Shown: positions 25,991 to 64,000 of the stretch, piece by piece
Numbering within the stretch: position 1 is the first letter of the stretch
Layout: each line of letters starts with the position of its first letter
Made by a program: the position numbers and the translations under genes
Notes under the pieces: generated by a model
Seen by the model: the letters and a program-made list of their open reading frames with translations, nothing else
Database searches by the model: none
What the model was told of the DNA's origin: nothing
Origin: an uncultured delta proteobacterium
GTDB lineage: Bacteria > Desulfobacterota > Binatia > Binatales > Binataceae
NCBI GenBank assembly: GCA_963794325.1
Contig: CAWCDG010000007.1
Span: 192,001 to 256,000 of the forward strand
Length of the DNA stretch: 64,000 nt
Reading direction: 5' to 3'

Positions 25991-26395
25991 CTACTCGGCG
26001 ATCGGCTGGGCGTATTCCACGAGCACGCCGCGGGTGGCTTTGGGATGCAGGAAGCAGATCATGCCCGCCAGGCCGTGGCGCGGTTTCTGATCGATCAACT
26101 GGATATTCTTACTACGCGCGGCGGCGAGTTCGCGCTCGACGTCGTCAGTCTCGAAGCATACGTGATGCAGGCCGCCGCCGCGCCGTGCGAGGAATTTGCC
26201 GACCGCATTGTTGAGGTCGAGCGGTTCGAGCAGTTCGATCTCGCTCTCGCCAGCCTTGAGCAAGGCGGCGCGGACGCCCTGATCTTCAATCGTCGCGCTC
26301 TTCGTGAAATGCAGGCCGAGCGTGTCGCGCCAGAACTTCAATCCCGCGTCGAGATTCGGCACGACCACGCCGACGTGATGAATTTTTCTCAGCAT
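25991..26395 (-). CDS. mce: Methylmalonyl-CoA epimerase (VOC family)
   Basis: IHHVGV, QGV, IELLEP, GGLHHVC, FLHPK..GVLVE. Confidence 0.85.
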   Translation of the reverse strand: MLRKIHHVGVVVPNLDAGLKFWRDTLGLHFTKSATIEDQGVRAALLKAGESEIELLEPLDLNNAVGKFLARRGGGLHHVCFETDDVERELAAARSKNIQLIDQKPRHGLAGMICFLHPKATRGVLVEYAQPIAE

Positions 26396-26402
26396 CAGTC
26401 TG

Positions 26403-47958: not shown

Positions 47959-50262
47959 ATGAGCCGTAAACCGCGCATCGAACCGTATCGCGAGCCCGGT
48001 GGAGGATGGGGCGCGACCATCGCGACCGGCAAGGTGCTCCTTGAGCAAAAGGTTTTGTTCAAAGGCGCCCGCGCCCTTTATCACATGAACAAGCCCGGCG
48101 GCTTCAAGTGCTCGAGTTGCGCGTGGCCCGATCCGTCGCCCGATAAGGCCGACCCTTTTGTGATTTGCGAGAACGGAGCCAAGGCCGTGGCATGGGAGAT
48201 CTCGGCAAAACGCGCGACTCCGGAATTCTTTGCCCAGCATTCAGTAACCGAACTAAGCCGCCAGTCTGACTACTGGCTCGAGCAGCAAGGCCGCATCACG
48301 CATCCTTTGGTGTACGACCCCGACACGGATCACTATGTACCTATCGAGTGGGATAAGGCCTTCGCCTTGATCGGAAAGGAACTCCGCAATTTGTCCGATC
48401 CCAAGCAGGCGGAGTTCTATACCTCCGGCCGGTCCAGCAACGAAGCTGCGTTCCTATACCAATTGTTCGCTCGAGAGTTCGGAACCAACAACTTTCCCGA
48501 CTGCTCCAACTTTTGCCACGAACCTAGCAGTCAGGGCCTGCCTCAATCGATCGGAGTTGGTAAAGGCACCTGCACTCTAGAGGACTTCAATCACGCCGAT
48601 CTTATTTTTGTTATCGGGCAGAACCCGGGAACCAACAGCCCGCGCATGATGACCGAGCTGCACAATGCGGCGCGCCGTGGCGCACAAATCGTCGTCCTCA
48701 ATCCGCTCCGCGAGCGGGCGCTCGAGCGTTTTCAGCAGCCGCAGAGCGTGCTCGAGATGGCGACGATGCGCTCGACACCTATCGCCACGCACTACTACCA
48801 GGTGAAGATCGGCGGTGATACTGCCGCGCTCAAAGGGATCATGAAGGCCGCCGTCGAGGCCGACGATCGCGCGATGCGCGAGGATCGACCTCGCGTCCTG
48901 GATGTCGAGTTCATCGAAGGTCACACCTACGATTTCGAAGCCTTTGCCGCCGATTTGAGGACCACACCGTGGGCCGCAATCGAGAAGCAGTCGGGACTCA
49001 CTCGCGACCAACTCACTGAGGCGGCCCAGGTGTATCTCAAGGCCAACAATGTAATGGCCTGCTTCGGCATGGGTATCACCCAACACTTTCGCGGAACTCA
49101 GAACGTGCAGCAGGTAGTCAACCTGCTGCTGCTGCGCGGGAACATCGGTAAACCCGGCGCCGGCGTCGTCCCGGTGCGCGGACACTCGAACGTGCAGGGC
49201 GATCGCACGGTAGGCATCACCGAGCGGCCCACCAGGGAATTCCTCGATCAGTTGCAGAAAGTCTTCGGTTTCAATCCGCCGCGTGATCACGGCCACGATG
49301 TAGTGCACGCGCTCGGCGCGATTATGCGTGGCGAGGCTAAGGCCTTCGTCAGCCTCGGCGGCAATTTCGTAGCTGCATCGCCGGATACTCCTTTGACAAT
49401 TGACGCGTTTCGCAAACTCGACCTGACAGTAAGTGTAGCAACGAAGCTGAATAGAACTCACCTTATACACGGTCGGGTCGCTTTGATATTGCCGTGCCTG
49501 GCCCGTTCCGAACTGGATCGTGCACCAGACGGCACGGTGCGCGCGGTCACAATCGAAGATTCGATGTCGGTAGTACAAGCGTCGCGTGGAATGATCGCAC
49601 CCGCTAGCCCTCATCTACGTTCGGAACCCTGGATTGTCGCGAGCATGGCGCGCGCAACGCTCGCCGATAAGTCAGTCGTTCCATGGGAGTGGATGGTCGA
49701 AGATTACTCTCGCATTCGAGACAAGATAGAAGCGGTCTTTCCGATCTTTCAGGCATTCAACGCGCGTATCAAAATACCCGGCGGCTTTCGACTGGCGAAT
49801 CCCGCGAGCGAGAGAATCTGGATGACCCCGACCGGTAAGGCGAACTTCATCGTATTCCCGGGACTCGATGAGGACCTGCATCAAAACAACCCGGACGTCC
49901 TTTGGCTCAGCACTATTCGCAGCCACGATCAGTACAACTCGACCATCTACAGCAATAACGACCGTTATCGCGGCATATACAACCAGCGCGACGTGCTGTT
50001 CCTTAACGACAACGAGATAAAAAGGCGCGGCCTGTCGGCAGAGGCTCGCGTCGATATACACACGATGTCCTCGGACGGAATCGATCGCGTCGTCCACGGT
50101 CTCAAAATAGTTCCCTATAACATCCCCGACGGTAGTTGCGCGGCCTACTACCCCGAGACCAACCCACTGCTCCCGTTGAGTCTCCACGACCCCATCTCCG
50201 GCACCCCAAGCGCAAAAGGAATCCCAGTCGTGCTCAAGCCGGTCTCGGCAACAAAGTCTTAA
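47959..50262 (+). CDS. FdhF/YdeP family molybdopterin oxidoreductase
   Basis: GGWG, NKPGGFKCSSCAWPD, CENGAKA, YTSGR.SNEAA, NNFPDCSN.CHE, RGHSNVQGDRT, RSHDQYN. Confidence 0.93.
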   Translation: MSRKPRIEPYREPGGGWGATIATGKVLLEQKVLFKGARALYHMNKPGGFKCSSCAWPDPSPDKADPFVICENGAKAVAWEISAKRATPEFFAQHSVTELSRQSDYWLEQQGRITHPLVYDPDTDHYVPIEWDKAFALIGKELRNLSDPKQAEFYTSGRSSNEAAFLYQLFAREFGTNNFPDCSNFCHEPSSQGLPQSIGVGKGTCTLEDFNHADLIFVIGQNPGTNSPRMMTELHNAARRGAQIVVLNPLRERALERFQQPQSVLEMATMRSTPIATHYYQVKIGGDTAALKGIMKAAVEADDRAMREDRPRVLDVEFIEGHTYDFEAFAADLRTTPWAAIEKQSGLTRDQLTEAAQVYLKANNVMACFGMGITQHFRGTQNVQQVVNLLLLRGNIGKPGAGVVPVRGHSNVQGDRTVGITERPTREFLDQLQKVFGFNPPRDHGHDVVHALGAIMRGEAKAFVSLGGNFVAASPDTPLTIDAFRKLDLTVSVATKLNRTHLIHGRVALILPCLARSELDRAPDGTVRAVTIEDSMSVVQASRGMIAPASPHLRSEPWIVASMARATLADKSVVPWEWMVEDYSRIRDKIEAVFPIFQAFNARIKIPGGFRLANPASERIWMTPTGKANFIVFPGLDEDLHQNNPDVLWLSTIRSHDQYNSTIYSNNDRYRGIYNQRDVLFLNDNEIKRRGLSAEARVDIHTMSSDGIDRVVHGLKIVPYNIPDGSCAAYYPETNPLLPLSLHDPISGTPSAKGIPVVLKPVSATKS

Positions 50263-52368: not shown

Positions 52369-53578
52369 GTGCCGGGTGGCCGACTAGTGCACGCTGAAGG
52401 CAAGGTGGAGCCCGGTTTCGAAGCAGTCCGCGACGCATTCGCCGAGGCACAAGCTCAGGACGAAGGCGGCGCGCAGTTGTGCGTCTATCAGCATGGCAAG
52501 CGAGTGATCGATCTGTGGGCGGGAACCGACAAGCTCAATCGCCGTCCCTATACCGCCGATACGATCACGATTTTGATGTCGTGTACCAAGGCGGTCACCG
52601 CCGTTTGCGTGCACATGCTCGCCGAGCGCGGACTGATCGACTATGACGCGCCGGTCGCGCGCTATTGGCCGGAGTTCGCGGCGCAAAGACAAAGGCGCAA
52701 TCACGGTTCGCGATATCCTCGCGCATCGAGCAGGCCTGATGGGCTTCAACGAAGAAGACGAAATATTCGGGCCCAATCTGTTCGACTGGAACCGATGCAC
52801 CGCGGCGCTCGCGAACATGGAGCCGTGGTGGAAGCCTGGTTCGGCCTACTTCTATCACGCGTTGACCTTTGGCTATCTGGCCGGCGAGATCGTGCGCCGC
52901 GTCTCCGGAAAAACCGTCGGCGCATTTGTCGAAGCGGAAATCGCCGGGCCGCTCAAGCTTGACCTGTGGATCGGCCTTCCCGCCGACCGGGAGCATCGCG
53001 TCGCACCGCACATCGTTCCCGCCAAGCAGCTGAGCGACGAGCAACTGCGCGCGGTCTTCTCCGGCTTGGGCTTGGACATGAACTCACGCCCGGCGCGCGC
53101 AGCCTTTGCCATGGCGACAACCACAGCCGAGGGTCTGAATCTAATAAACACGCGCGAGGCTCACGCCGCACAGTTGCCTTTCGGCAACGGCATCGCGAAT
53201 GCGCGCGCTCTCGCGAAGATGTATGCCGCGCTTATCGGTGAGATCGACGGCGTCCGCCTGCTGACCCGCGAGACTATTGAGCGTGTGCGCGAGTCGCAGA
53301 ACGAAAACATCGGAGCGCCCGCCTCGCTGAAGCCGCTGGCGGGTTCGGGGCCGCAGAGATTTGGCCTGGGTTTCGAGTTGCCGCGTGCGATCGAACCGAT
53401 GCTCGGTGCTGGCTGCTTCGGTCACGGAGGTGCGGGCGGCCGGATGGCGTTCGCGCATCCTGAATCCGGCATCGCGGTGGCCTACGTCTGCAACAGCATG
53501 TTGTGGGACGGCTTCAGCGGTCCCGACCAACGATGGCTCGGATGGACCAAGGCATTGCGCGACGTGCTCGGTATCTGA
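52369..53578 (+). CDS. Serine hydrolase, beta-lactamase class C / EstB-like esterase (frameshift near 52684)
   Basis: SCTK, VARYWPEF / LAHRAGL, YHALTFG, FGHGGAGG. Confidence 0.88.
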
Positions 53579-54718: not shown

Positions 54719-55996
54719 TCACGCGGGCTTGAGCTTGTACTTTATCGGCATGTGCTTGACGCCGCCGACAAAGCTCGATCGCAGGCGCTCGACCGGTCCC
54801 GCCAATTCCGCGTGCTCGAGTCGTTTCGCCAGCTCTCTGAAGATTACCGCCAGTTCCAGCCGCGCCAGATTCGATCCGAGACAGAAATGCTCCCCGATGC
54901 CGAATGACAGATGAGGATTCGGATTGCGCCCGATGTCGAACTTGAACGGCTCGTCGAATACGTCCTCGTCGCGGCTGGCCGACGGGTAGAACAAACACAC
55001 CGACTCGCCCGCGCGAATCTTCTGTCCGCGCACGACGGTGTCGCTCGTTGCGGTGCGTGCAAACTGTATCACCGGCGAAGTCCAACGCACGATTTCCTCG
55101 ACCGCGGATCTGATCAACGTCGGATCGGACTTGAGCCGCCGGAATTGTTCGGGGTGTTCGATGAACGCGAGCAGACCGCCGCTGGTTGCGTTGCGCGTGG
55201 TCTCGTTGCCCGCCACCACCAGCAGCAACAGGTACGAAAGGAGTTCCAGCGCAGGCAGCGGCTCGCCGTTCACCTTCGCATTCGAGATGATACTGGTGAC
55301 GTCGCCGCGCGGATGCTTGCGGCTCTCCTCGACCAGGTCGGTGAAGTACTGGAACATTTCCAGGCGCGCTTGCGCGAAGGTCTCATTCGCATCCTTGCCG
55401 CGCTGAAATTCAGGATCGCCGCCGCCGATGATTTCATTGGTCCAGCGAAACATGGTCGGCCAGTCCTTGCGCGGCACGCCAAGCATCTCGGCGATGACCG
55501 CGATCGGCACCTTGCACGAAATCTCGGTGACGAAGTCGCATTCTCCGCGATCCATCACGTCGTCGAGCAACTGATTGGTGATATTCGCGATCTCCGGCTC
55601 GAGCGCGCGAATCGATCGCGGCGTGAAGTACTGGCTCAGGATCGATCGGAACTCGCCATGCTCCGGCGGATCCATATTAAGCAGATGCTTGAGCGGCAGC
55701 TCGGGCGGAGGTCCCTCCGCGCCCTCATCGAGCGGGAACACCGCGAGCCGCGGGCCGTTGAGCCACAACCGCGGCTGACAACTGATCTCTCTGAGGTCGG
55801 AGGCCTTGGTAATAGCCCAAAACGGATCGACTCGCGGCCGCTCGACGTAAAACACCGGATGGTGCTTGCGCAGGAACGTCCACTCCGCGTGCGGATACCC
55901 GTTTTTCTGGTAATGGTCGGGACTGATGATATCAATCGTGTCGAGCGGGAATTCGGGCGCGCTCTCGACGCGATCGTTTGCGGCTTGGGGTTCCAT
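54719..55996 (-). CDS. Cytochrome P450 (CYP124/125/142-like)
   Basis: MDPPEH, AGNETT, EEIVR (ExxR), FGIGEHFCLG heme-binding motif. Confidence 0.95.
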   Translation of the reverse strand: MEPQAANDRVESAPEFPLDTIDIISPDHYQKNGYPHAEWTFLRKHHPVFYVERPRVDPFWAITKASDLREISCQPRLWLNGPRLAVFPLDEGAEGPPPELPLKHLLNMDPPEHGEFRSILSQYFTPRSIRALEPEIANITNQLLDDVMDRGECDFVTEISCKVPIAVIAEMLGVPRKDWPTMFRWTNEIIGGGDPEFQRGKDANETFAQARLEMFQYFTDLVEESRKHPRGDVTSIISNAKVNGEPLPALELLSYLLLLVVAGNETTRNATSGGLLAFIEHPEQFRRLKSDPTLIRSAVEEIVRWTSPVIQFARTATSDTVVRGQKIRAGESVCLFYPSASRDEDVFDEPFKFDIGRNPNPHLSFGIGEHFCLGSNLARLELAVIFRELAKRLEHAELAGPVERLRSSFVGGVKHMPIKYKLKPA

Positions 55997-56018
55997 CGAT
56001 CTCTCCTATGTTCGAGAA

Positions 56019-56537
56019 CTAGGCGAACAGCATCTTTCTCAGCGCCGGCAACAGGCGCATTTCCTCACTGTCGATCAAATCGTCCAGCTTGACCGCGAGC
56101 GCACACAGAGCCTTGCCGGCCGCAGAGACAACTTTGTCTGGATCCTCTTCGAACGATACGCCGATCAGCTTGCCAATCAAGGAGCGCATCTCGCGATGGC
56201 TCTTCTTGATTCGGTTCACGACCTCGGGCGACAGGCCGCCCGCCCCCTTCGCCGCCCATGGCAACACGGTCTCATCTTCGCTGAGCAGATGCTGATTGAG
56301 TTGCGGCTTGAGCGTTTCCCAGCAGCGCTGCGCCTGCGCGCGCATCTCGCGATCCGCCGGCTTGAATCCAAGGATAACCCCGGCCACCGCCGCGTCGAGC
56401 AGCGGTATCCCGAGACTGAATTCCTCGCGGCTCAGTTCTTCCGTGATATTCCGGATCTTGCGGTTGTCGGTGCGCTTTGCCGCGCGGATCGACGACGACT
56501 TTTTGACGGCGCTCATATTGGTCTTCATAGTACTCAC
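56019..56537 (-). CDS. Degenerate hemerythrin-like (HHE) four-helix protein
   Basis: HLLSEDETVLP, SHREM and IDSEEMRLLP repeats; first and last canonical His missing. Confidence 0.6.
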   Translation of the reverse strand: MSTMKTNMSAVKKSSSIRAAKRTDNRKIRNITEELSREEFSLGIPLLDAAVAGVILGFKPADREMRAQAQRCWETLKPQLNQHLLSEDETVLPWAAKGAGGLSPEVVNRIKKSHREMRSLIGKLIGVSFEEDPDKVVSAAGKALCALAVKLDDLIDSEEMRLLPALRKMLFA

Positions 56538-56965
56538 CAGTAGTTCGCTTCAATCTTCGATGCGGGGAACGCTGCTTCAACGACGACTCCGCCATTCCAA
56601 TTCATTGTTCGTGCCTGAACCTCGCGAGCGATTTCGCCGCCGAGATCATGTGGAATTAGAGCGGACAATCCAGGATTTGCATCCTTTGGACACAGTTATC
56701 TGATGCCCTTGGCAACACAAGGTCGCAGTTCGAAGCGCCGTACGCGTTACCCGATCTCTGGACCGCAAACCTCCATTTCCGTTCTGCAAGGAACATTTCT
56801 GCTAAATCGTCCTGGATTCAGTCGCGATGGAACTTCCGATGACTTGCCTGTTCTGCGAGAAGTTTCTCGGCAGGCGCCATCGATGGTCGGGGACAGTTTG
56901 TTTCACCAGCAGCGGTAGCGAACGCGAGTCTCGGGCATTGGCAGGCACCAGGGAGTTGGTCCCTA

Positions 56966-56981
56966 GGGCACAAATGTTGCT
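56966..56981 (+). promoter_or_regulatory. Candidate sigma54 (-24/-12) promoter
   Basis: GGGCAC-AAATG-TTGCT with correct GG-N10-GC spacing, ~45 nt before the porin start; long upstream intergenic region. Confidence 0.6.
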
Positions 56982-57026
56982 CTCAGACTAATGCGCCGGA
57001 CGCTTCGGCGCTGATCGGGGGAAGCT

Positions 57027-58586
57027 ATGCGGACAAGACGAATTATCGCGGGGCTGTTCTGTACTCTCGGTATGACATTGACGCTCGCGGGCTTGGCGCG
57101 CGCCGCTGACAGCGACGCCACCGACGCCGCTGCGCTCAAGGAAATCCGGGCCGAGATGCGCCAACTGCGCGAGGAGCGCAAACATGACCGCGCGGAGATT
57201 CGCTCGCTCGAGGGCAAGGTTCAACAACTCGAGTCGAAGGATTCGAAAGTCGAAGCCACCACTCAGCAGCTGCAGAGCACCGACCAGAAGCTCAAAGAGA
57301 CCACGCTCGAGCTTCAGCAGACCAATCAGCAAGTGAAGACCTTGCAGACCAAGGTCGACGCGCCAATCCCGCCGGCGCAGTTCACTAACGTTGTCGATCG
57401 CTACCTCGGATCGCACACCTTCACCGTAACCGGCGCGGCGGGCGGTCAATTCATCTTCGACCAGCAGAGCGGCGCGCTCGACAATCTCCATCACGCGTCG
57501 CAGAACTCGTTCTTCTTCGATTGGGAACCGATGATCCTCTACCGCCCGGCGGACTGGATCCTGTTCCAGGGAGTATTCAGCGCCGGATTTGGAGCGACCG
57601 GGACGGGAACCGATCTGTCAACGGCTGATTTCCAGATTTTTCTCAACGACTACATGACGGTCGAAGCCGGCCTTTTCGATCAGCCCTTCGGCGACTGGTA
57701 CGAGACCCAGAGCCCGATGTGGGTGAATCGGTTTGTCACTGCGCCACTGCCGTTTGGAGTAGAACCGGTTGTCCCACCGGGAGAGCTTGGAATCCAGCTT
57801 CGCGGCGGTATGCAATTCGGAGCGCTCGGCCAGGATTTCGATTGGACGGTCTGGGGCGGCAACGGACCGAATTTCAGCTCGAACGTCCTCGGCGCAGCGA
57901 TGTCGAGTCCGACCGCCGTCGCGTTCAGCCAGACCAACGGCAAGTCGATCGGCGCGCGCTTTCGAGTCTACCCGCTACCGGTTGATACGAAGTGGGGACG
58001 GCTCGAGCTCGGCGCGTCCACCTACAACGGCAAGTGGAACAACGGAGATTGGTTCAACTCGTGGGGCGTGGATTTCAATTACTTCGTCGGCAACCTGCAG
58101 ACCCGCGGCGAGTGGCTGTCATCGTATCGCCAGATGCCGATGGGGCAGGCGTCCGACAATCGACAGGGATGGTACGTGCAGGCCGGTTACTTCCTGAGCG
58201 GGGTTAAAGTCCCCGGCCTTCCCGACGTGATCAACAATTACCTCCGTCGATTCGAGCCGCTGGTGCGTTACTCGGGAGTAAACCAGCGCGGCGTTTCGAC
58301 CGACGACATCCAGGGCGCAACCGGCGTTGGGCTGGGCGGCACCCAGGTGGGACTGGTCCCCGATTTCGGCATCAACGGGTCGCCGGCCACCTACGCGCCG
58401 CACTCGCGCGAGGTGGCATTGGCCCTCGACTACTGGATCGCGCCGTCGATCGTCTGGCAGAACGAATTCGACATCGAGCTGCCACGCGCAGGAGGAGTAT
58501 TCGTCTCCCCAACCGGAGCCCAGACGGCGGTCGGCTCGGTCCCCAACGATCACGCGTTCCTCAGCCAATTCACGATCGGATTCTGA
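57027..58586 (+). CDS. Outer-membrane beta-barrel porin with N-terminal coiled coil
   Basis: Signal peptide (ARA), heptad coiled coil, G.F..PFG, GWYVQAGY, amphipathic strands, terminal QFTIGF beta-signal. Confidence 0.8.
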   Translation: MRTRRIIAGLFCTLGMTLTLAGLARAADSDATDAAALKEIRAEMRQLREERKHDRAEIRSLEGKVQQLESKDSKVEATTQQLQSTDQKLKETTLELQQTNQQVKTLQTKVDAPIPPAQFTNVVDRYLGSHTFTVTGAAGGQFIFDQQSGALDNLHHASQNSFFFDWEPMILYRPADWILFQGVFSAGFGATGTGTDLSTADFQIFLNDYMTVEAGLFDQPFGDWYETQSPMWVNRFVTAPLPFGVEPVVPPGELGIQLRGGMQFGALGQDFDWTVWGGNGPNFSSNVLGAAMSSPTAVAFSQTNGKSIGARFRVYPLPVDTKWGRLELGASTYNGKWNNGDWFNSWGVDFNYFVGNLQTRGEWLSSYRQMPMGQASDNRQGWYVQAGYFLSGVKVPGLPDVINNYLRRFEPLVRYSGVNQRGVSTDDIQGATGVGLGGTQVGLVPDFGINGSPATYAPHSREVALALDYWIAPSIVWQNEFDIELPRAGGVFVSPTGAQTAVGSVPNDHAFLSQFTIGF

Positions 58587-58591
58587 GGGGG

Positions 58592-58882
58592 ATGATCATG
58601 AGAAAAATACTTGCAACAATATTGCTGGCAACAATTGCGATCGGATGGAGTGGGACTTCAGCTCGGGCGCAGCAGGATGAGATGACGCCGGCTGAGCACA
58701 AGCGCCTGTTCCGTGAAGGTGCCAAGCTGTGGCCGGTTTACTGCAACACCTGTCATAACGCGCGGCCGGGCTCCGAGAAGGCGCCTTATGAGTGGGATCA
58801 GATCATGATGCACATGCGGACGCTCGGGAACTTCCCGCCCGAGGACGCCAAAGCGATTTTGGAATACCTCAAGGCCCGCTGA
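58592..58882 (+). CDS. Small periplasmic monoheme c-type cytochrome
   Basis: Signal peptide, CNTCH, W..IMMHM distal-ligand region. Confidence 0.85.
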   Translation: MIMRKILATILLATIAIGWSGTSARAQQDEMTPAEHKRLFREGAKLWPVYCNTCHNARPGSEKAPYEWDQIMMHMRTLGNFPPEDAKAILEYLKAR

Positions 58883-58920
58883 TCAGGCTTGGGTTGCGCA
58901 ACAATGAAACGGAGGACGAT

Positions 58921-59277
58921 GTGAATCGAATCATCTCAATTCTTGGCGCATGCGCGATTGTCGCGTGCGCGTTTGCGCCGGCGAGCGCGGGCGACATGGC
59001 GGCGGCCAAGCAGAACTACGATACGTTTTGCGTGAAATGCCACGGCCCCGGCGGCAAGGGCGACGGTCCCGCCGCGGCGACACTTTCGACCAGCCCGCGC
59101 AATTTCACTGACTGCGCCGCGATGGGCAAGATTTCCGACGAGACGATGTTCAACGTGATCAAAAACGGCGGTGCCGCCGCGGGTCTCAGCAAAGACATGC
59201 AGGCGTGGAGCTCCGGCTTCGAGGACGGCGAAATTCACGACCTCGTCGCTTACGTCAGAACCTTCTGCAAGAAGTAG
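58921..59277 (+). CDS. Periplasmic class I monoheme cytochrome c
   Basis: GGAGG SD with GTG start; signal peptide; CVKCHG..GKGDG, PRNFT, distal Met (DMQAW). Confidence 0.9.
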   Translation: MNRIISILGACAIVACAFAPASAGDMAAAKQNYDTFCVKCHGPGGKGDGPAAATLSTSPRNFTDCAAMGKISDETMFNVIKNGGAAAGLSKDMQAWSSGFEDGEIHDLVAYVRTFCKK

Positions 59278-59290
59278 CAGCGCGACCGCG

Positions 59291-61210
59291 ATGAGCGATC
59301 AAAGATCGATCGACGCGACCCCGCGCGATTTGTGGTGGTTTCGCAAGAACGTGCCGTGCCTCGATGCGTGCCCGGTCAAGACCGACGCGGGCCGCTACGT
59401 CCAGCTGATCGCCGAAGGACGGCTGGCGGAAGCTTACCGCGTCGCTCGCTCGCCCAACCCGATCGCCTCGATATGCGGACGCGCATGCGGCGCGCCGTGC
59501 GAGGATGCGTGCCGCCGCGGCAAGATCGATGCGCCCGTGACGATTCGCGCACTCAAGCGCTTTCTCACCGAGCAGTTCGGCCCCGAAGCACTCTTATCGA
59601 AGGGAGTGCGCGAGATGATCGCGGGACCGTCCGGCGGCGGCAGTACCACTCCCGGCCACATCGACATTCCCGGCGCGCGACCGGATGCGGCCGGGTCGAA
59701 GCGCAAGGTTGCCGTCGTCGGCGCGGGGCCCGCCGGTCTCGCATGCGCTAACGATCTCGCGCTGATGGGCTACAGCGTGACGGTGTTCGAGGCGATGGAG
59801 CACGCGGGCGGCATGCTTCGATATGGAATTCCGGCTTACCGCCTGCCACGCGACGTCATCGACTGCCAGGTGAGCGAGATCGAAGACCTCGGCGTCGAGT
59901 TTCGCTACTCCACACCGCTCAAAGCCGGCTTCGGAGTTCGCGAGCTGAAGGCGCAGGGCTACGAAGCAATCTTTCTCGCCGTCGGCGCGTCGCGCGGGCG
60001 CGCGGTGCCGATCGAGGGCAGCGATGCCGACGGCGTGATCAAGGCGATCGACTATCTGCTCAATATCAATCGCGGCTACCGCGTTCCTCTCGGCGGCAAG
60101 GTCGTCGTCATCGGTGGCGGTCTCGTCGCAATCGATGCGGCGCGAACCGCTGTACGCGCGCTCGTACCCGGACTCGTCATGTCCGACGAGGAAGAGCAGA
60201 GCGTCGAGGCAGGTGCGATGCGCGTTGCGCTGGACGCGGCCCGCGAAGCAGCCCGGCGCGGCGCGCTCGAAGTTACCGTCGCGAGCCTCGAGTCCGATGC
60301 CGAGATGCCGGCGATGAAATCGGCGCAGGGCCGCGAGGAACTGGACATCGCGCGCGAAGAGGGCGTCACCTTCATGCCCGGATGGGGGCCGAAACGAGTC
60401 GTCATCCGCGACGGCCACGCCGTCGGAATCGAGCTGGTGAAATGCGTCAAGGTATTCGACGAGGCCGGCCGCTTCCGCCCGCAGTTCGACGAGACCAATA
60501 AGCGCGTGATTGACGCCGACGCTGTGATCCTCGCGATCGGCCAGGCGCCGGACCTGTCATTCGTCACGCCCGAAGACGGCGTCTCGGTCACGCCGGCGGG
60601 CACGCTGAAGATCGATCCCGTCACGCTCGAAACCGGCATCGCAGGAGTATTCGCAGGTGGCGATGCGGCCTTTCCCCCGAGTCTTCTGATCACATGCGCG
60701 CAGCATGGCAAGGTCGCCGCGCGCGGAATCGACGCATACCTGCGCGGCAAGCCGCTCGGCCAGCCGCGGATGCACGTCACGATCGAGGAACTCCCGACCG
60801 ACACCTACAAGATGGTCGATCAATACGAAAAGAAGCATCGCGATATCCCGCTGGTGCCGCTCTCGCGCCGCACCGGAATCACCGAAGTCGAGAGTACCTT
60901 CACTGCCGACGACGCGCGCGAGCAGGCCGACCGATGCCTCTACTGCCATATCCATCCGATCTACGACGGCGCGAAATGCATCCTGTGCAATCGATGCGTC
61001 GACATCTGTCCCGAGCACTGCCTGCACTTCACCCTCGCCGAAGAAATCGCCGACCAGGAACGCGTCGCCGGCGTGATCCCCGAAGCGCAGATGCGCAGCG
61101 CGTTTCTCTACGACGAAGCCAAATGCATCCGATGCGGCCTGTGTGCGACCCGATGCCCCACCTCGGCAATCACGATGGAGCGCTTCCAGTTCGAAGAGAC
61201 GGCCGGCTGA
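59291..61210 (+). CDS. GltD/NfnB/DsrL-like FAD- and NAD(P)-binding iron-sulfur oxidoreductase with C-terminal 2[4Fe-4S] domain
   Basis: PCLDACP, CGRACGAPCEDAC, GAGPAG, YGIP.YRLP, IGGG.VAID, GGD, ADRCLYC, CILCNRCVDICP, CIRCGLCATRCP; no signal peptide. Confidence 0.9.
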   Translation: MSDQRSIDATPRDLWWFRKNVPCLDACPVKTDAGRYVQLIAEGRLAEAYRVARSPNPIASICGRACGAPCEDACRRGKIDAPVTIRALKRFLTEQFGPEALLSKGVREMIAGPSGGGSTTPGHIDIPGARPDAAGSKRKVAVVGAGPAGLACANDLALMGYSVTVFEAMEHAGGMLRYGIPAYRLPRDVIDCQVSEIEDLGVEFRYSTPLKAGFGVRELKAQGYEAIFLAVGASRGRAVPIEGSDADGVIKAIDYLLNINRGYRVPLGGKVVVIGGGLVAIDAARTAVRALVPGLVMSDEEEQSVEAGAMRVALDAAREAARRGALEVTVASLESDAEMPAMKSAQGREELDIAREEGVTFMPGWGPKRVVIRDGHAVGIELVKCVKVFDEAGRFRPQFDETNKRVIDADAVILAIGQAPDLSFVTPEDGVSVTPAGTLKIDPVTLETGIAGVFAGGDAAFPPSLLITCAQHGKVAARGIDAYLRGKPLGQPRMHVTIEELPTDTYKMVDQYEKKHRDIPLVPLSRRTGITEVESTFTADDAREQADRCLYCHIHPIYDGAKCILCNRCVDICPEHCLHFTLAEEIADQERVAGVIPEAQMRSAFLYDEAKCIRCGLCATRCPTSAITMERFQFEETAG

Positions 61211-61671
61211 TGGACGGCGATCGGCGAAAAATCCTGCGCTTCATCGGCAAGGGCTCGGTGTTGGCGGCGTTCCTCGCGCAGATCGGCGCGGCCGGCCGCG
61301 CGTTTTTCCCCAACGTGCTCTACGAGCCGCCGAACCGCTTCAAACTCAAGAAGCCCGACGATTACCCCGACGGCTACACGCTCGATGCGACGCATCGCCT
61401 TTACGTGATCCGCCAGAAAGATGCGTTCCACGTTATCTCCGCGATATGCACGCATCTCGGATGCAACGTGCAGTGGATGGACACCGAGTTCGACTGCCCG
61501 TGCCACGGCAGCCGCTTCCGTCCCGACGGCACGGTTATCGCGGGACCCGCGCCGCGTCCTCTCGATTGGTTTGCGACTACGGTTTCGCCCGACGGGTATC
61601 TCGAAGTCGATAGCTCAAAAGACGTTGCGCGCGACTTCCAGTTGATAATCGGCGGAAAGGCCAAGGCCTAG
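61210..61671 (+). CDS. Rieske iron-sulfur subunit of a Rieske/cytochrome b complex
   Basis: Twin-arginine leader DRRKIL plus TM segment; CTHLGC, CPCHGS, GPAPRPL. Confidence 0.93.
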   Translation: MDGDRRKILRFIGKGSVLAAFLAQIGAAGRAFFPNVLYEPPNRFKLKKPDDYPDGYTLDATHRLYVIRQKDAFHVISAICTHLGCNVQWMDTEFDCPCHGSRFRPDGTVIAGPAPRPLDWFATTVSPDGYLEVDSSKDVARDFQLIIGGKAKA

Positions 61672-61673
61672 CG

Positions 61674-62975
61674 GTGGGCGACAAAATCAAGGCGCTCTGG
61701 CGCAAGACTTCGTGGGCATGGTCGCCCGAAAGCGATCGCGAATCCTCCGAGGCCATCGTCAAAAATTTCTGGCTGCACTGGTTCCCGGCCAAAGTCGCGC
61801 GCGCCAGCATGGACTGGAACTACTCGTTCTGGCTCGGCACCGCGTCCGCGTCGCTGCTGCTAATCCTCACCGTCACCGGCGTGATGCTGATGTTCTTTTA
61901 CGTGCCCTCTACCGAGCGCGCCTACGGCAGCATCAAGGATTTGCAGTACGCCGTCAGCTTCGGCCGCCTGCTCAGAAACCAGCACCGATGGGCCGCCGAG
62001 GGCATGGTCGCCGTCGTGTACATCCACATGGCGCGAGTATTCTTCACCGGCGCCTACCGTGGCCCCCGCGCAATCAACTGGGTAGCCGGCGTCGTCCTCT
62101 TCCTCGCGACGCTGTTCTTATCGTTCACCGGCTACTTGCTGCCATGGGACCAGCTCGCATTCTGGGCAATCACAGTCGGCACCAGCATCGCAAAGCAGGC
62201 GCCATTCGTCGGACCAACAATTCAGTTCATTCTTCTGGGCGGCCATGAAATCGGACAGCAGACGCTGCTCCGATTTTACGTGCTGCACGTTTTTTTCCTG
62301 CCGGTCTTCGTCTGGATCCTGTTCGCCTATCACATGTGGCGCGTCCGCAAGGACGGCGGCCTCGCGGCGGTCGAGCGCATCCGCAATGACCGCGTGATGG
62401 TGCCGAAGGCGACGCCGAAGACCAAGAGCTACTCGCTGTTTGGAATTACGCCGGGCACGTCGGTGGCTGTGATGAGCTCGACGGGCCTCGAAGAATCCGA
62501 CCAGGTTTTCTCGTCGCCGAACATGTCGCGGCGAATCGCGCTGGTCTTCCTGATCGTGTTCAACCTCACCCTGCTCGCCGCGATCCTGTTCAACGCACCG
62601 CTCGAAGGTCTCGCCAATCCTGCTGTCACACCGAATCCGGCGAAGGCGCCCTGGTACTTCGTCTGGCTGCAGGAGCTGGTCGCGTCGACCACGATTCGCC
62701 TTGGCGATTTCACCGTCAGCGGTGCGCTGCTCGGTGGAATACTGCTGCCGGGATTTCTACTCGCGGTGCTGACGGCGTGGCCGTGGCTCGATCGTTCGCC
62801 ACGTCGCGCGGAAGGGCGATGGCTCGCGCCCGAGCGCAAGCGCCAGAATGCGACCTTCGCCATCGCGACCCTCGCGATCATCATCCTGATCATGGTCGGG
62901 GTTTATCTGCGCGGTCCCTACTGGCGAATCTACTGGCCCGGCCAACCGCGCCCCGAGACGCCGCGGCTCTACTGA
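61674..62975 (+). CDS. Cytochrome b (b6-like domain fused to a subunit IV-like domain)
   Basis: Four heme His (QHRW/IHMAR; LHV/YHM), TGYLLPWDQ..FWA, P.TPNP.KAPWYF (PEWY equivalent). Confidence 0.93.
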   Translation: MGDKIKALWRKTSWAWSPESDRESSEAIVKNFWLHWFPAKVARASMDWNYSFWLGTASASLLLILTVTGVMLMFFYVPSTERAYGSIKDLQYAVSFGRLLRNQHRWAAEGMVAVVYIHMARVFFTGAYRGPRAINWVAGVVLFLATLFLSFTGYLLPWDQLAFWAITVGTSIAKQAPFVGPTIQFILLGGHEIGQQTLLRFYVLHVFFLPVFVWILFAYHMWRVRKDGGLAAVERIRNDRVMVPKATPKTKSYSLFGITPGTSVAVMSSTGLEESDQVFSSPNMSRRIALVFLIVFNLTLLAAILFNAPLEGLANPAVTPNPAKAPWYFVWLQELVASTTIRLGDFTVSGALLGGILLPGFLLAVLTAWPWLDRSPRRAEGRWLAPERKRQNATFAIATLAIIILIMVGVYLRGPYWRIYWPGQPRPETPRLY

Positions 62976-62976
62976 C

Positions 62977-63903
62977 ATGGCCGACAAGCGCGAATCATTC
63001 GAATCGAAGGACTTCGGCTGGATGGTCGCGATGTCGATCCTGTTCCTCGCGCTGGTCGTGGTCTGCTTCTGGATAGAGTTCAGCACCGAGTGGGGAGGCT
63101 ATCAACGAGAGTTTCCGCAGTTGCTCGGTCACTACGGCAAGGTGGAGGACGCGCGCGACTTCCGCCCGGGGATTCAGCAAATCTGGATTCCCAAGATTGG
63201 TGTCACCGATCGATGCATCACGTGTCACCTGGGTTATGAATGGTCGTCGGTGTTGCCGGCTACGATCGCCGAGCCGCTGAAGCCGCATCCGATGAACGAC
63301 TGGATTGCGAAGCATGAGTTCGCGAAGTTCGGATGCACGCCGTGTCACGGCGGTGACGGAGCAGCGACCACTGTCATGGGGGCGCATCAGGGCGGTCGGG
63401 GATGGGAAGATCCGATGCTCTCGCGCGCGCTCGCGGACCAAAATGGGCTCACGATGAACGAGATGATGCAGATGCGATGCAACTTTTGTCATCGCCACGA
63501 TGCCGCTACTCCGGGGATGGACGAGATCAATCTCGCCAAGGTGCTATTCAAGAAGAAAAAATGCCTGCTCTGCCACGTCGTCGAAGGCCGCGGCGGCGCC
63601 ACCGGCCCCGAGCTGACCTACGAAGGCGACCGGAATCCGGAACTGCTGAACTTCGCACACGTAACCGGTGATCACACGATGTTCAACTGGAACGTCCAGC
63701 ATCTGACCAAGGCCAGCGCGGTCTCGCCGAAAACCGCGATGCCTGATTTCAACTTCAAGCCCGACGAGTCGCGAGCGCTAACCCTCCTGCTGCTAAGTTG
63801 GCGCCGCCTCACCTACCCCCCGGAATACATCCCCGACCCCGAAGTAGCCGCATCCGCAACGCAACCATCGCCAACCCCAACCGCAACTCCTGTCGCGCGT
63901 TGA
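62977..63903 (+). CDS. Membrane-anchored tetraheme cytochrome c
   Basis: N-terminal TM helix; CITCH, CTPCH, CNFCH, CLLCH; C-terminal class I domain GPEL...MP. Confidence 0.92.
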   Translation: MADKRESFESKDFGWMVAMSILFLALVVVCFWIEFSTEWGGYQREFPQLLGHYGKVEDARDFRPGIQQIWIPKIGVTDRCITCHLGYEWSSVLPATIAEPLKPHPMNDWIAKHEFAKFGCTPCHGGDGAATTVMGAHQGGRGWEDPMLSRALADQNGLTMNEMMQMRCNFCHRHDAATPGMDEINLAKVLFKKKKCLLCHVVEGRGGATGPELTYEGDRNPELLNFAHVTGDHTMFNWNVQHLTKASAVSPKTAMPDFNFKPDESRALTLLLLSWRRLTYPPEYIPDPEVAASATQPSPTPTATPVAR

Positions 63904-64000
63904 CCCTGCGAATCCGGGGTCAGGTTCCAAGCACGATTGTTCCCGACGCCTTGGCGGCTTTGATGAGGTTCTGATCCAAAGTGGCGAGCGGAAGTTTGCG

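What the first reader, a model, noticed from the sequence alone, without database searches (positions are those of the whole stretch)
56966..63903. Envelope-spanning redox operon: porin, two cytochromes c, NAD(P)-flavoprotein, Rieske/cytochrome b and tetraheme cytochrome c
Seen: seven tightly packed co-oriented genes (gaps of about 40 nt or less, with one stop/start overlap) whose products would lie in the outer membrane, periplasm, inner membrane and cytoplasm. Known: Rieske/cytb clusters that include an NAD(P) flavo-Fe-S oxidoreductase and multiheme cytochromes occur in anammox bacteria, where a bifurcating or NAD(P)-reducing role has been proposed. Porin-cytochrome pairs mediate extracellular electron transfer in other bacteria. 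Inference: this could be a complete circuit linking an external or periplasmic redox partner to the quinone pool and NAD(P)H/ferredoxin. The porin-plus-monoheme front end on such a bc complex is unfamiliar to me. The operon may continue past the window.
Basis: partly seen in the sequence, partly recalled or inferred. Interest (0 to 1): 0.75.

Follow-up and report, generated by a model that had tools for sequence, protein, structure and literature searches.

The report
Porin-fronted flavoprotein Rieske/cytochrome b operon
A soil bacterium's seven-gene cluster encodes a quinol-oxidising membrane complex wired to an NAD(P)-binding flavoprotein, of the kind known from anammox bacteria and nitrous-oxide reducers, preceded by an outer-membrane pore and two small cytochromes whose role is still open.

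Summary
The seven genes are real and are packed as described. Named hits place the organism in Candidatus Binataceae. Genes 4-7 (GltD/NfnB-like Fe-S flavoprotein, Rieske, fused cytochrome b6/subunit IV, membrane-anchored tetrahaem c) form a module that is not special to anammox. A flavoprotein homologue lies with the Rieske/cyt b genes in 51 of the 74 assessable related loci, from 14 named phyla. On both the cyt b tree and the flavoprotein tree the window is sister to a clade whose 8 assessable members all sit directly upstream of Sec-type (clade II) nosZ. The Rieske's best solved relatives are the two anammox Rieske proteins. The "porin-cytochrome conduit" reading is not supported. The porin has no haem motif and models as a roughly 16-strand diffusion porin with a coiled-coil neck, and both cytochromes are monohaem. 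The porin plus a gene-2-type cytochrome does recur next to the same module in one Verrucomicrobiae MAG. What lies downstream of gene 7 is unknown, because the window ends after 97 non-coding bases. Verdict: a new variant of a known kind, with the direction of electron flow at the flavoprotein unresolved.

The parts
57027..58586 (+). g1: outer-membrane porin-like protein, 519 aa. It has a signal peptide, an N-terminal coiled coil and a barrel of about 16 strands. It has no haem motif.
   Evidence: Porin_O_P 21.9 bits against cut-off 20.9; AF2 model, mean pLDDT 58.8; Foldseek PDB top hits are all 16-strand porins.
58598..58882 (+). g2: small periplasmic monohaem cytochrome c (CNTCH), 94 aa. The alternative start is 58592. 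This is the 'g2-type' that recurs beside the porin in L011.
   Evidence: small HMM of g2 plus the two L011 cytochromes; further hits are L014 at 2.7e-13 and L066 at 1.9e-09; no significant PDB match.
58921..59277 (+). g3: class I monohaem cytochrome c (CVKCH), 118 aa, GTG start. It has a signal peptide with a possible lipobox (LGAC).
   Evidence: (Cytochrome_CBB3 9.7e-11, Cytochrom_C 1.1e-08). The lipobox is my reading of the sequence.
59291..61210 (+). g4: cytoplasmic NAD(P)/FAD Fe-S flavoprotein, 639 aa. It is a GltD/NfnB-like core with an N-terminal Fer4_20 domain and a C-terminal 2x[4Fe-4S] ferredoxin domain. No hydrophobic segment was found.
   Evidence: PRK12771 411.9 bits, below the 516 cut-off; invariant Cys 23, 27, 66, 70, 74, 549, 552, 563, 566, 569, 573, 612, 615, 618, 622.
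61210..61671 (+). g5: Rieske [2Fe-2S] protein, 153 aa. Its start overlaps the g4 stop (TGATG). It has an RR-containing N-terminus and the boxes CTHLGC and CPCHGS.
   Evidence: (the alignments show both boxes).
61674..62975 (+). g6: cytochrome b, 433 aa, a fusion of a b6-like half and a subunit-IV-like half. It carries four haem-ligand His (104, 118, 205, 220) and a further invariant His35. It contains no Cys at all, so no covalent haem cN is possible. The Qo-region motif reads APWYF.
   Evidence: (ExtP 253 bits against cut-off 290; ExtQ 70 against 150).
62977..63903 (+). g7: membrane-anchored tetrahaem cytochrome c, 308 aa, ending in a Pro/Thr-rich tail. It is the c1/f-equivalent of the complex.
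63904..64000 (.). 97 nt after g7 with no evident start codon or RBS, followed by the window end.
56019..56537 (-). Divergent upstream gene for a hemerythrin HHE-domain protein, 172 aa. It is a possible sensor or repair protein, and no link to the operon has been shown.
   Evidence: Hemerythrin 6.4e-07; no NCBIfam hit. For comparison, L034 has ScdA_N plus hemerythrin upstream of its module.

Best explanation
This is a Binataceae operon for a specialised Rieske/cytochrome b complex of the flavoprotein-bearing type. Its subunits are a cytoplasmic NAD(P)/FAD/[4Fe-4S] protein (g4), a Tat-type Rieske protein (g5), a fused cytochrome b6/subunit IV without haem cN (g6) and a membrane-anchored tetrahaem c (g7). 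The operon also encodes two periplasmic monohaem cytochromes c (g2, g3) and a dedicated outer-membrane diffusion porin (g1).

Shown: the gene set, the cofactor motifs, the tight operon packing, the recurrence of g4 with Rieske/cyt b genes in many phyla with congruent trees, and the sister position to nosZ-linked modules.

Inferred mechanism: quinol is oxidised at the Qo site. One electron runs 'downhill' through Rieske, the tetrahaem c, g2/g3 and a high-potential periplasmic terminal enzyme that is not encoded inside the window. In relatives that enzyme is N2O reductase, a cbb3-type oxidase or a molybdoenzyme. The other electron crosses the membrane on the two b haems and, instead of reducing quinone at an N-side site, passes through the four Fe-S clusters of g4 to FAD and reduces NAD(P)+. 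This is the bifurcating scheme proposed for anammox R/b-2 and R/b-3.

The porin most likely lets a small hydrophilic solute, probably an anion, into the periplasm for the terminal reaction. It is unlikely to carry electrons. My odds are about 0.85 that g4-g7 form one complex, about 0.45 that the net direction is NAD(P)+ reduction, and about 0.5 that the porin is a solute channel functionally tied to the operon.
For: Gene content, motifs and spacing.

g4 with Rieske/cyt b elsewhere: it is adjacent in 47 loci, elsewhere in the locus in 4, absent in 23 and unassessable at a contig end in 6, out of 80 loci. The 51 positive loci come from 14 named phyla.

The cyt b tree and the flavoprotein tree recover the same groups. 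Both place the window as sister to the nos-linked clade (SH-aLRT 100 for the 11-row clade; local support 99 for the 8-row clade). The two genes therefore travel as a unit.

The g4 stop overlaps the g5 start.

The Rieske is closest to Kuste4569 and Kustd1480 among solved structures. Like Kustd1480 (+335 mV) it has Ser after box II and Phe where Kuste4569 has Tyr.

g6 has no Cys, so there is no haem cN, which fits a non-canonical N side.

Modules in relatives always sit beside high-potential terminal enzymes: nosZ in 8 of 8 assessable members of the sister clade, and COX1/FixO/FixG or molybdopterin enzymes in other clades.

Hauser et al. argue for NAD(P)H production and report co-migration of the anammox subunits (Discussion read).

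Porin: the fold matches are diffusion porins only, and there are 11 invariant Arg among 38 Binatia homologues. The porin sits on contigs of the same length as flavoprotein homologues for 14 lengths, four of them under 8 kb, down to about 62% porin identity (my reading of the tables).

In L011 a 28%-identical porin (E 1e-24) lies between two g2-type cytochromes directly upstream of g4-g5-g6-multihaem c.
Against: No experiment exists for any non-anammox member, and the direction of electron flow is untested even in anammox.

GltD-family modules usually take electrons from NAD(P)H. This is family knowledge, not something tested here.

Binatia are described as aerobic heterotrophs or methylotrophs with complex I and ACIII (PMC8262859, passages), so the need for quinol-driven NAD(P)H synthesis is not obvious.

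His35, the candidate ligand for the extra b haem proposed in the anammox models, is invariant in 79 of 79 loci whether or not a flavoprotein gene is present. It gives no specific support.

The subunit-IV half has three hydrophobic segments rather than the five of the anammox models, and g7 has 4 haems rather than 6 or 8.

The terminal enzyme is not in the window.

The porin model is of low confidence (pLDDT 58.8). The porin was found in only 1 of 80 related loci. No close Binataceae locus could be fetched, so synteny within the family rests on equal contig lengths only.
Confidence: 0.55

Rival explanations
1. NAD(P)H-input reading. g4 oxidises NAD(P)H and feeds electrons through its Fe-S clusters into the N-side b haem or quinone site. 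The complex would then act as an NAD(P)H:cytochrome c oxidoreductase, a dedicated short route from NAD(P)H to a high-affinity terminal enzyme that bypasses complex I.
For: g4's closest families are NAD(P)H-oxidising modules: GltD, NfnB and DPD-type, with PRK12771 described as an 'NAD(P)-binding protein'. The module occurs in many heterotrophic lineages such as Acidobacteriota, Chlamydiota, Planctomycetota and Verrucomicrobiota. It sits beside clade II nosZ and cbb3-type oxidase genes.
Against: Hauser et al. judge this wasteful for anammox because proton-pumping NADH dehydrogenases exist (Discussion). Binatota also encode complex I. g6 lacks haem cN, which in b6-type complexes is part of the N-side quinone site (as described).
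Confidence: 0.25
2. Front part of a clade II nos cluster. nosZ, nosB and nosDFY lie just beyond the window, and the operon is the electron-supply module for N2O respiration in this Binataceae bacterium.
For: The window is sister to the clade in which 8 of 8 assessable loci carry nosZ downstream of the g7 homologue. NosZ of L004 matches Sec-dependent NosZ TIGR04246 at 888.7 bits. Clade II nos clusters are described as carrying Fe-S, Rieske, cy-b and cy-c genes (PMC11096178, text and Fig. 5 legend). Binatia MAGs are reported to hold denitrification genes.
Against: In the nos-linked loci L003, L004 and L009 nosZ starts 12-28 nt after the g7 homologue. L002 and L010 have other genes in between. 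Here, 97 nt follow g7 without a start. The window's g7 belongs to a derived four-haem clade that has lost the C-terminal fifth haem domain kept by all nos-linked homologues. No nos accessory gene was found among the 43 other ORFs I scanned in the window. The Binatota paper's main text does not mention nosZ (0 occurrences; its supplements were not read).
Confidence: 0.3
3. Envelope-spanning electron circuit. The porin with g2 forms an unfused cytochrome-porin, in the manner of Cyc2 or Mtr/Pcc conduits. It would exchange electrons with an external donor or acceptor and link it to quinone and NAD(P).
For: The porin and a g2-type cytochrome are immediate neighbours both here and in L011. In L011 they follow two multihaem cytochromes and a 667-aa signal-peptide protein ending in ..VVRF, which looks like a true conduit. 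Geobacter's ext cluster joins a porin to a Rieske/cyt b set. The Cyc2 comparison is recalled and was not tested.
Against: g1 has no haem motif. Its fold matches are 16-strand diffusion porins, with no Mtr-type barrel among the 50 listed. g2 and g3 carry one haem each, which is too few to span a membrane. No multihaem or conduit genes lie upstream in the window, where the neighbours are hemerythrin and P450 genes on the other strand.
Confidence: 0.1
4. The porin (with or without g2 and g3) is a general housekeeping porin that merely sits in front of the respiratory genes.
For: Only 1 of 80 related loci has the porin. The sister nos-linked loci lack it. Porin_O_P-like proteins are common outer-membrane proteins.
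Against: The gap to g2 is 5-11 nt on the same strand. The porin co-occurs with the flavoprotein on contigs of equal length for 14 lengths, four of them under 8 kb. The same gene set recurs in a second phylum. The ESM-Atlas neighbours are Binatota and Verrucomicrobiota clusters only.
Confidence: 0.15

Closest known systems
Kuenenia stuttgartiensis Rieske/cyt b complexes R/b-2 (Kuste4569-4574) and R/b-3 (Kustd1480-1485)
   Same: Both have a b6-type cyt b with subunit IV, a Rieske protein, a multihaem c in place of cytochrome f, and a cytoplasmic NAD(P) Fe-S flavoprotein with four Cys-cluster sites. The window's Rieske has these two proteins as its best solved relatives. The flavoprotein has the same structural relatives, 9bp5 and 5t5i.
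   Different: Here cyt b and subunit IV are fused. There is no haem cN, since g6 has no Cys. The subunit-IV half has three hydrophobic segments rather than five. The cytochrome c carries four haems rather than six or eight, and there is no HAO-like octahaem partner. A porin and two monohaem cytochromes are added.
Electron-transfer module of clade II (Sec-type) nos clusters ('Fe-S, Rieske, cy-b, cy-c' genes)
   Same: It has the same four gene types in the same order, and the window is sister to these modules on both the cyt b and flavoprotein trees. The literature description was seen in PMC11096178.
   Different: No nosZ, nosB or nosDFY is seen within the window. g7 lacks the fifth haem domain. 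The nos-linked loci have no porin. That the literature's 'Fe-S protein' is this flavoprotein is my inference from the loci. Sanford et al. 2012 is recalled and could not be read.
Geobacter sulfurreducens extHIJKLMNOPQS cluster (porin ExtI + Rieske ExtO + cyt b ExtP/ExtQ + 4-haem ExtS)
   Same: A porin with weak phosphate-porin similarity is encoded in one cluster with Rieske, b6-type cyt b, a subunit-IV-like protein and a four-haem cytochrome (PMC5877670 passages). g6's best NCBIfam models are ExtP and ExtQ.
   Different: ExtP and ExtQ score below their cut-offs (253 against 290; 70 against 150). There is no rhodanese ExtH, no 5-, 10- or 12-haem cytochromes and no selenoprotein. The ext cluster has no flavoprotein. 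g1 gave no Ext-related NCBIfam hit.
Trimeric 16-strand diffusion porins with a specificity filter or coiled-coil neck (OprP/OprO, DcaP)
   Same: g1 has a weak Porin_O_P profile match, about 16 long strands in the model and an N-terminal coiled coil. Its Foldseek hits include OprP 2o4v (rank 2), OprO 4rjw and DcaP 6eus.
   Different: Sequence identity to these is 10-13% in the structural alignments. The model has low confidence, and the substrate is unknown.

Membership tests
Rieske/cytochrome b complex (b6-type) | Rieske cluster boxes CxH...CxxH | tested here: met
   CTHLGC and CPCHGS are aligned to solved Rieske proteins. Pfam Rieske gives 3.4e-11.
Rieske/cytochrome b complex (b6-type) | Four His ligands for haems bL and bH on helices B and D | tested here: met
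   H104, H118, H205 and H220 are invariant in 17 of 17 sequences, 33 of 33 sequences and 79 of 79 loci.
Rieske/cytochrome b complex (b6-type) | Subunit-IV-like C-terminal part carrying the Qo-loop motif (PEWY family) | tested here: met
   Cytochrom_B_C gives 2e-06 and ExtQ 1.8e-19. The motif reads K-A-P-W-Y-F, invariant at positions 324-329. Naming it a PEWY variant is from recall.
Rieske/cytochrome b complex (b6-type) | Covalent haem cN bound to a Cys near the start of helix A | tested here: not met
   g6 contains no Cys. Trp53 aligns with the Cys of the CLGG/CMGG-type sequences, which are 25 of the 79 loci.
Anammox-type flavoprotein-bearing R/b complex | NAD(P)/FAD Fe-S flavoprotein gene within the Rieske/cyt b cluster | tested here: met
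   g4 lies directly upstream, and its stop overlaps the g5 start.
Anammox-type flavoprotein-bearing R/b complex | Physical association of the flavoprotein with cyt b on the cytoplasmic side | not testable with these tools
The only support is indirect: synteny in 51 of 74 assessable loci and congruent trees.
Anammox-type flavoprotein-bearing R/b complex | Five-helix subunit IV and a hexa- or octahaem cytochrome c | tested here: not met
   The C-terminal half of g6 has three hydrophobic segments, and g7 has four CxxCH.
Anammox-type flavoprotein-bearing R/b complex | High-potential Rieske (above +300 mV) | tested here: inconclusive
   The Ser after box II is present. Phe replaces the Tyr of Kuste4569, as in Kustd1480. 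No potential can be computed from this.
Clade II nos gene cluster | Sec-type nosZ followed by nosB and nosDFY next to the module | not testable with these tools
   The window ends 97 nt after g7.
Clade II nos gene cluster | Module genes group with those of nos-linked clusters | tested here: met
   The window is sister to the nos-linked clade on the cyt b tree (SH-aLRT 100 for the 11-row clade) and on the flavoprotein tree (support 99).
Porin-cytochrome conduit (Mtr/Pcc type) | Large barrel enclosing or docking multihaem cytochromes | tested here: not met
   The barrel has about 16 strands and diffusion-porin fold hits. g2 and g3 are monohaem and g1 has no haem motif.
Geobacter Ext cluster | ExtP/ExtQ equivalogs with ExtH rhodanese and ExtKL/M/N multihaem cytochromes | tested here: not met
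   ExtP scores 253.2 against cut-off 290 and ExtQ 70.3 against 150. No rhodanese or multihaem genes lie in the operon.
Porin_O_P (phosphate-selective porin O/P) family | Profile match at or above the gathering score | tested here: inconclusive
   The whole-protein score is 21.9 bits against 20.9, but no single stretch passes. Porin_O_P is precomputed on 5 of the 120 listed homologues and on 14-35% of members of the three nearest Atlas clusters.
GltD/NfnB-like NAD(P)H Fe-S flavoproteins | Fer4_20 N-terminal Fe-S domain plus two Rossmann folds (FAD, NAD(P)) | tested here: met
   Fer4_20 gives 3.7e-17 and Pyr_redox_2 1.5e-27. PDB matches are 9bov 8e-80, NfnA 9n5u 1e-74 and 4ylf 1e-62. All NCBIfam models score below their cut-offs, so no equivalog name applies.

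The most novel reading that the evidence does not exclude
The porin and the g2-type monohaem cytochrome form a dedicated outer-membrane module. It would be either a redox-active porin-cytochrome pair (an unfused counterpart of fused cytochrome-porins) or a substrate-specific gate. The module is shared by Binatota and Verrucomicrobiota. It would feed a flavoprotein-bearing, electron-bifurcating Rieske/cyt b complex that makes NAD(P)H from quinol at the expense of a high-potential periplasmic reaction. That would put an anammox-style 'NAD(P)H-generating bc complex', with its own outer-membrane entry port, into abundant uncultured soil bacteria.
Probability: 0.12. Interest if true: 0.8.

Novelty: new variant of a known kind. 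Interest (0 to 1): 0.55.

Why it matters
A Rieske/cyt b complex that diverts its low-potential electron to NAD(P) has so far been discussed for anammox bacteria, which are hard to work with. My searches for the anammox gene names found only anammox papers.

The loci collected here show the same flavoprotein joined to Rieske/cyt b genes in 14 named phyla. They sit next to N2O reductase, cbb3-type oxidase or molybdoenzyme genes. If the bifurcation idea is right, it would be a general way to draw reducing power from high-potential respiration. It could then be tested in organisms that carry clade II nos clusters.

For Binatia, whose published respiratory chain lists ACIII only (main text), this adds a second, specialised quinol oxidase. 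The porin and small-cytochrome front end is an unexplained but recurrent addition, and it may point to the substrate.

Tried and rejected

2. Cluster names for cyt b representatives: the database was switched off. Taxonomy was taken from locus record titles instead.

It returned none closer than 57% identity. The only Binatia locus (L070, 37%) is a different, split-b6 complex without a flavoprotein. The gene order downstream of g7 in close relatives therefore stayed unchecked.

4. His35 as a marker of flavoprotein coupling: rejected, because it is invariant in 79 of 79 loci with or without g4.

5. g2 or g3 as the detached fifth haem domain of pentahaem relatives: phmmer found no hit at E <= 10 against six C-terminal domains.

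6. Rfam on 55900-64000: 0 matches at E <= 0.1.

7. Promoter and terminator scans were not above their shuffles.

8. PDB by sequence: nothing for g7 at E <= 0.1 and nothing significant for g2.

9. Sanford et al. 2012 is not held. Literature searches for a flavoprotein named within nos clusters, for Binatia with nosZ and for Binatota complex III found no description of this operon. The supplements of PMC8262859 were not read and may list Rieske/cyt b genes.

Full report
**What is there.** Between 57027 and 63903 the + strand carries seven ORFs.
- g1 57027-58586
- g2 58598 (or 58592)-58882
- g3 58921-59277 (GTG start behind a GGAGG)
- g4 59291-61210
- g5 61210-61671
- g6 61674-62975
- g7 62977-63903

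The gaps are 11 (or 5), 38, 13, -1, 2 and 1 nt. The g4 stop and the g5 start share a base (TGATG).

Pfam and NCBIfam give the following.
- g1: a marginal Porin_O_P match (21.9 bits, cut-off 20.9) plus coiled-coil-type hits over residues 29-111.
- g2, g3: cytochrome c domains.
- g4: Fer4_20 + Pyr_redox_2 + a C-terminal two-cluster ferredoxin domain. The best NCBIfam model is PRK12771 'NAD(P)-binding protein', below its cut-off.
- g5: Rieske.
- g6: Cytochrome_B plus Cytochrom_B_C. The best NCBIfam models are ExtP and ExtQ, both below cut-off.
- g7: weak cytochrome c hits.

A simple hydropathy and motif script shows the following.
- g1, g2 and g3 have N-terminal signal-like segments.
- g4 has no hydrophobic segment.
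- g7 has one N-terminal anchor and four CxxCH.
- g2 and g3 have one CxxCH each.
- g1 has none.
- g6 has no cysteine at all.

After g7 there are 97 nt without a plausible start before the window ends. Rfam finds nothing in 55900-64000. The promoter and terminator scans are no better than shuffles.

**Whose genome.** All named hits among the best 120 homologues of g1 are Candidatus Binatus, Binataceae or Binatia. For g4 one is labelled Acidoferrales and the rest are the same Binatia names. Identities run up to 88-95%. The main text of the Binatota genome survey lists complexes I, II, ACIII and IV and never uses the word Rieske (PMC8262859, passages only). Its supplements were not read.

**The core module is widespread, and its nearest relatives are nos-linked.** I searched 1.84 billion representatives with g6. 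I aligned g6 with 16 full-length hits that I picked from the 150 listed.

phmmer of g1-g7 against all ORFs of these loci gave the distribution of the g4 homologue.
- Within 1.5 kb of the Rieske/cyt b genes: 47 loci.
- Elsewhere in the locus: 4 loci.
- Absent: 23 loci.
- Not assessable because of a contig end: 6 loci.

The 51 positive loci come from 14 named phyla. Acidobacteriota contribute 20, Chloroflexota 10, Chlamydiota 4 and Planctomycetota 4. Single or double loci come from Verrucomicrobiota, Ignavibacteriota, Kryptoniota, Zixiibacteriota, Calditrichota, Omnitrophota, Hydrogenedentota, Actinomycetota, Gemmatimonadota and Armatimonadota.

On an IQ-TREE 'quick' tree of 80 cyt b rows, the window falls in an SH-aLRT-100 clade of 11 with L001-L010. 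Split genes were joined per locus, and L035 was left out because no cyt b ORF was found. The window is sister (support 82) to the other ten. Eight of those ten (L002-L007, L009, L010) have a NosZ homologue downstream of the g7 homologue. The other two contigs end too early to tell. Seven of the eight (all but L004, whose contig ends just after nosZ) also have a homologue of the 210-aa gene that follows nosZ in L003, and NosD.

L004's NosZ is a Sec-dependent NosZ (TIGR04246, 888.7 bits, cut-off 625). It was the only one of the eight put to NCBIfam. A FastTree of 33 flavoproteins gives the same picture: the window is sister to the nos-linked group with support 99, and the same other groups are recovered. 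These 33 were the window plus the 32 loci with one intact g4 and one fused cyt b. Flavoprotein and cyt b thus evolve as one unit.

Other clades place the module next to other terminal enzymes (76 neighbour ORFs scanned).
- COX1, FixO and FixG genes (L015-L017).
- Molybdopterin enzymes of about 1150 aa, with a Fer4_11 partner scanned in L034 and L044, or of about 910-950 aa.
- Giant multihaem cytochromes (Chlamydiota).

He et al. describe clade II nos clusters as carrying Fe-S, Rieske, cy-b and cy-c genes and nosB (PMC11096178, text and Fig. 5 legend). That their 'Fe-S protein' is this flavoprotein is my inference from the loci.

**Link to anammox.** Among solved structures, g5's two best matches (E 6.3e-23 and 6.7e-23; the next is 1.2e-14) are 9rk4 and 9rk3. 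The depositors' paper identifies these as Kuste4569 and Kustd1480. g4's PDB matches are led by 9bov/9bp5 (8e-80) and include 5t5i. Hauser et al. found the same two entries as structural relatives of Kuste4570.

That paper (abstract, Introduction, section 3.3 and Discussion read) sets out the proposal that these complexes use Qo-site bifurcation to reduce NAD(P)+. It reports Rieske potentials above +300 mV. It predicts four Fe-S sites and an extra b haem held by a His of each cyt b monomer.

- In the window, g4 has conserved Cys groups for several clusters.
- g5 has the Ser after box II, and Phe where Kuste4569 has Tyr, as in Kustd1480.
- g6 has an invariant His35 ahead of helix A.
- His35 is equally invariant in the 23 loci without a flavoprotein (79 of 79), so it does not discriminate.

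Differences from the anammox complexes:
- cyt b is fused to subunit IV;
- there are three hydrophobic segments in the subunit-IV half, not five;
- there is no haem cN;
- there are four haems in the c subunit;
- there is no HAO-like partner.

**The cytochrome c subunit has lost a domain.** The nos-linked g7 homologues (400-409 aa) carry a fifth CxxCH in a C-terminal domain. The window's protein stops in the Pro/Thr-rich linker. Of 134 homologues with E <= 1e-10, the 120 listed fall into a class of about 300-334 aa and a class of about 397-416 aa.

A FastTree used 32 of these that I picked across the identity range (88 were left out), 9 locus proteins and the window. It puts five-haem forms, two of them named Candidatus Binatia, at the base of the window's side of the tree. 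All four-haem forms fall in one derived clade (15 rows, support 95). The four-haem state is thus a loss within this lineage. g2 and g3 are not that lost domain (no phmmer hit at E <= 10).

**The porin and the small cytochromes.** An AF2 model of g1 from 38 homologues is of low confidence (mean pLDDT 58.8, pTM 0.53). It shows long N-terminal helices and about 16 long strands. Its 50 listed Foldseek PDB matches are classical diffusion porins, including OmpC, OprP, OmpM1, OmpU, Omp32, OprO and DcaP, with TM-scores of 0.39-0.59 on the target. No Mtr-type barrel appears.

With no haem motif in g1 and single haems in g2 and g3, a trans-outer-membrane haem wire is not encoded here. Eleven Arg are invariant among the 38 porins. 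This is a weak hint of anion selectivity, because these sequences are all at least 60% identical.

Is the porin tied to the module? Three lines of evidence bear on it.
- Spacing: the gap to g2 is 5-11 nt.
- Contig lengths: 14 'longest contig' lengths are shared between the g1 and g4 hit tables, among them 3868, 7217, 7805 and 7957 nt. Nineteen are shared between g4 and g7, among them 4976, 5666, 7094 and 7850 nt. Six are shared between g1 and g7, and three occur in all three tables (my reading of the tables). Equal length is the only link, so this is indirect. Two of the three-way matches (53515 and 503177) carry five-haem g7 forms, so the porin is not confined to the four-haem lineage.
- Other loci: an HMM of the 38 porins hits only 1 of the 80 loci, L011 from a Verrucomicrobiae MAG (E 3e-39). 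There the order is g2-type cytochrome (CNRCH), porin (28% identity over 359 residues, E 1e-24, with a coiled-coil neck), a second g2-type cytochrome (CTQCH), flavoprotein, Rieske, cyt b and six-haem c. The ESM Atlas neighbours of g1 are Binatota clusters and one Verrucomicrobiota cluster.

The same seven gene types thus recur in a second phylum whose cyt b lies in a different clade. This argues for a functional unit. In L011, but not in the window, two multihaem cytochromes and a 667-aa signal-peptide protein without family matches lie just upstream. That looks like a genuine conduit.

**How it most likely works.** Shown:
- the parts and their cofactor motifs;
- operon packing;
- recurrence and co-evolution of g4 with the Rieske/cyt b genes;
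- the neighbourhood of high-potential terminal enzymes in relatives.

Inferred: g4-g7 form one complex. Quinol is oxidised at Qo, and the high-potential electron goes Rieske, then g7, then g2/g3, then a periplasmic terminal enzyme encoded elsewhere. The low-potential electron crosses on the b haems to g4 and NAD(P)+.

I favour this direction (about 0.45) over NAD(P)H input (about 0.25) for three reasons.
- g6 lacks haem cN.
- The Rieske resembles the high-potential anammox proteins.
- The module is always paired with very oxidising acceptors.

None of these is decisive. GltD-type modules classically oxidise NAD(P)H, and Binatia have complex I.

The porin is best read as a solute channel serving the terminal reaction. 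Binatia are reported to express NarG and to encode DNRA and denitrification genes (passages), so an N-oxyanion is a reasonable guess, but it is only a guess. Whether nosZ follows beyond the window is open (my odds are 0.3). For it stands the sister position to the nos-linked clade. Against it stand the 97-nt gap and the lost fifth haem domain.

**Comparison and novelty.** The module is a member of a known kind: the anammox R/b-2 and R/b-3 type, and the clade II nos 'Fe-S/S/cy-b/cy-c' type. It is not a member of the Geobacter Ext cluster, because ExtP and ExtQ score below cut-off and the other Ext genes are absent. That cluster is, however, a published precedent for a phosphate-porin-like gene in front of Rieske/cyt b genes.

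New here:
- the host lineage;
- the four-haem, haem-cN-less fused form;
- the porin plus g2-type cytochrome front end shared with Verrucomicrobiota.

My literature searches found no description of this operon, and none of the flavoprotein's spread beyond anammox. Subscription papers (Kartal 2013, Sanford 2012, Hein 2017, ten Brink 2013) could not be read and may cover part of it.

**Limits.**
- No close Binataceae locus was available.
- The trees are quick or FastTree trees.
- Gene calls in the loci are my own greedy ORF picks.

Noticed in passing
L011 1-5040: Two multihaem cytochromes c (723 aa with an MtrC/MtrF-domain hit; 277 aa with paired CXXCH) are followed by a 667-aa signal-peptide protein ending ..VVRF with no Pfam or NCBIfam match. 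This looks like a porin-cytochrome conduit, and it sits immediately upstream of the porin and flavoprotein-Rieske/cyt b genes of this Verrucomicrobiae MAG.
   Followed up: partly
L015-L017, L023; L026, L031, L034, L037, L039, L042, L044, L059, L062; L021, L024: Flavoprotein-bearing Rieske/cyt b modules sit next to different terminal enzymes depending on the clade. These are cbb3-type oxidase genes (COX1, FixO, FixG), molybdopterin enzymes of about 1150 aa (with a Fer4_11 partner scanned in L034 and L044) or about 910-950 aa, and giant multihaem cytochromes in Chlamydiota.
   Followed up: partly
window 62977-63903 and proteins P0391-P0510: The c subunit family has basal five-haem forms (about 400 aa, some named Binatia) and one derived four-haem clade (about 300-334 aa) that contains the window. 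This indicates loss of the C-terminal haem domain within the lineage.
   Followed up: yes
window 56019-56537 (-); L034 3726-4673; L003 7019-7498; L031 1007-1888; L037 7068-7508; L039 7073-7540: A hemerythrin HHE-domain gene diverges from the operon. One related locus has ScdA_N plus hemerythrin upstream, and four have an Rrf2-family regulator directly upstream of the flavoprotein gene. These are possible NO/O2-responsive control elements, untested.
   Followed up: no
L070 9278-14568: A complete Binatia chromosome carries a different Rieske/cyt b cluster (split b6 plus subunit IV, a roughly 900-aa multihaem c, no flavoprotein) that groups with Nitrospinota and Bacteroidota loci. Binatia can therefore hold more than one type of Rieske/cyt b complex.
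   Followed up: partly
window 52369-53578 (+): A beta-lactamase-family serine hydrolase gene is split over two overlapping reading frames (197 aa and 311 aa ORFs). This is a likely frameshift or assembly error.
   Followed up: no
window 47959-50262 (+): An FdhF/YdeP-family molybdopterin oxidoreductase (TIGR01701, 947.8 bits) lies 7 kb upstream. No link to the operon is shown.
   Followed up: partly
window 58921-59277: g3's best solved relative is 6h5l chain B, 'conserved hypothetical cytochrome protein' (E 5.7e-09), but the match covers only 37 residues around the haem motif.
   Followed up: no
window 26001-28000: AT skew drops to -0.206 in this 2-kb bin, against values between about -0.04 and +0.11 elsewhere. 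The bin overlaps an 805-aa TPR-repeat gene on the minus strand.
   Followed up: no
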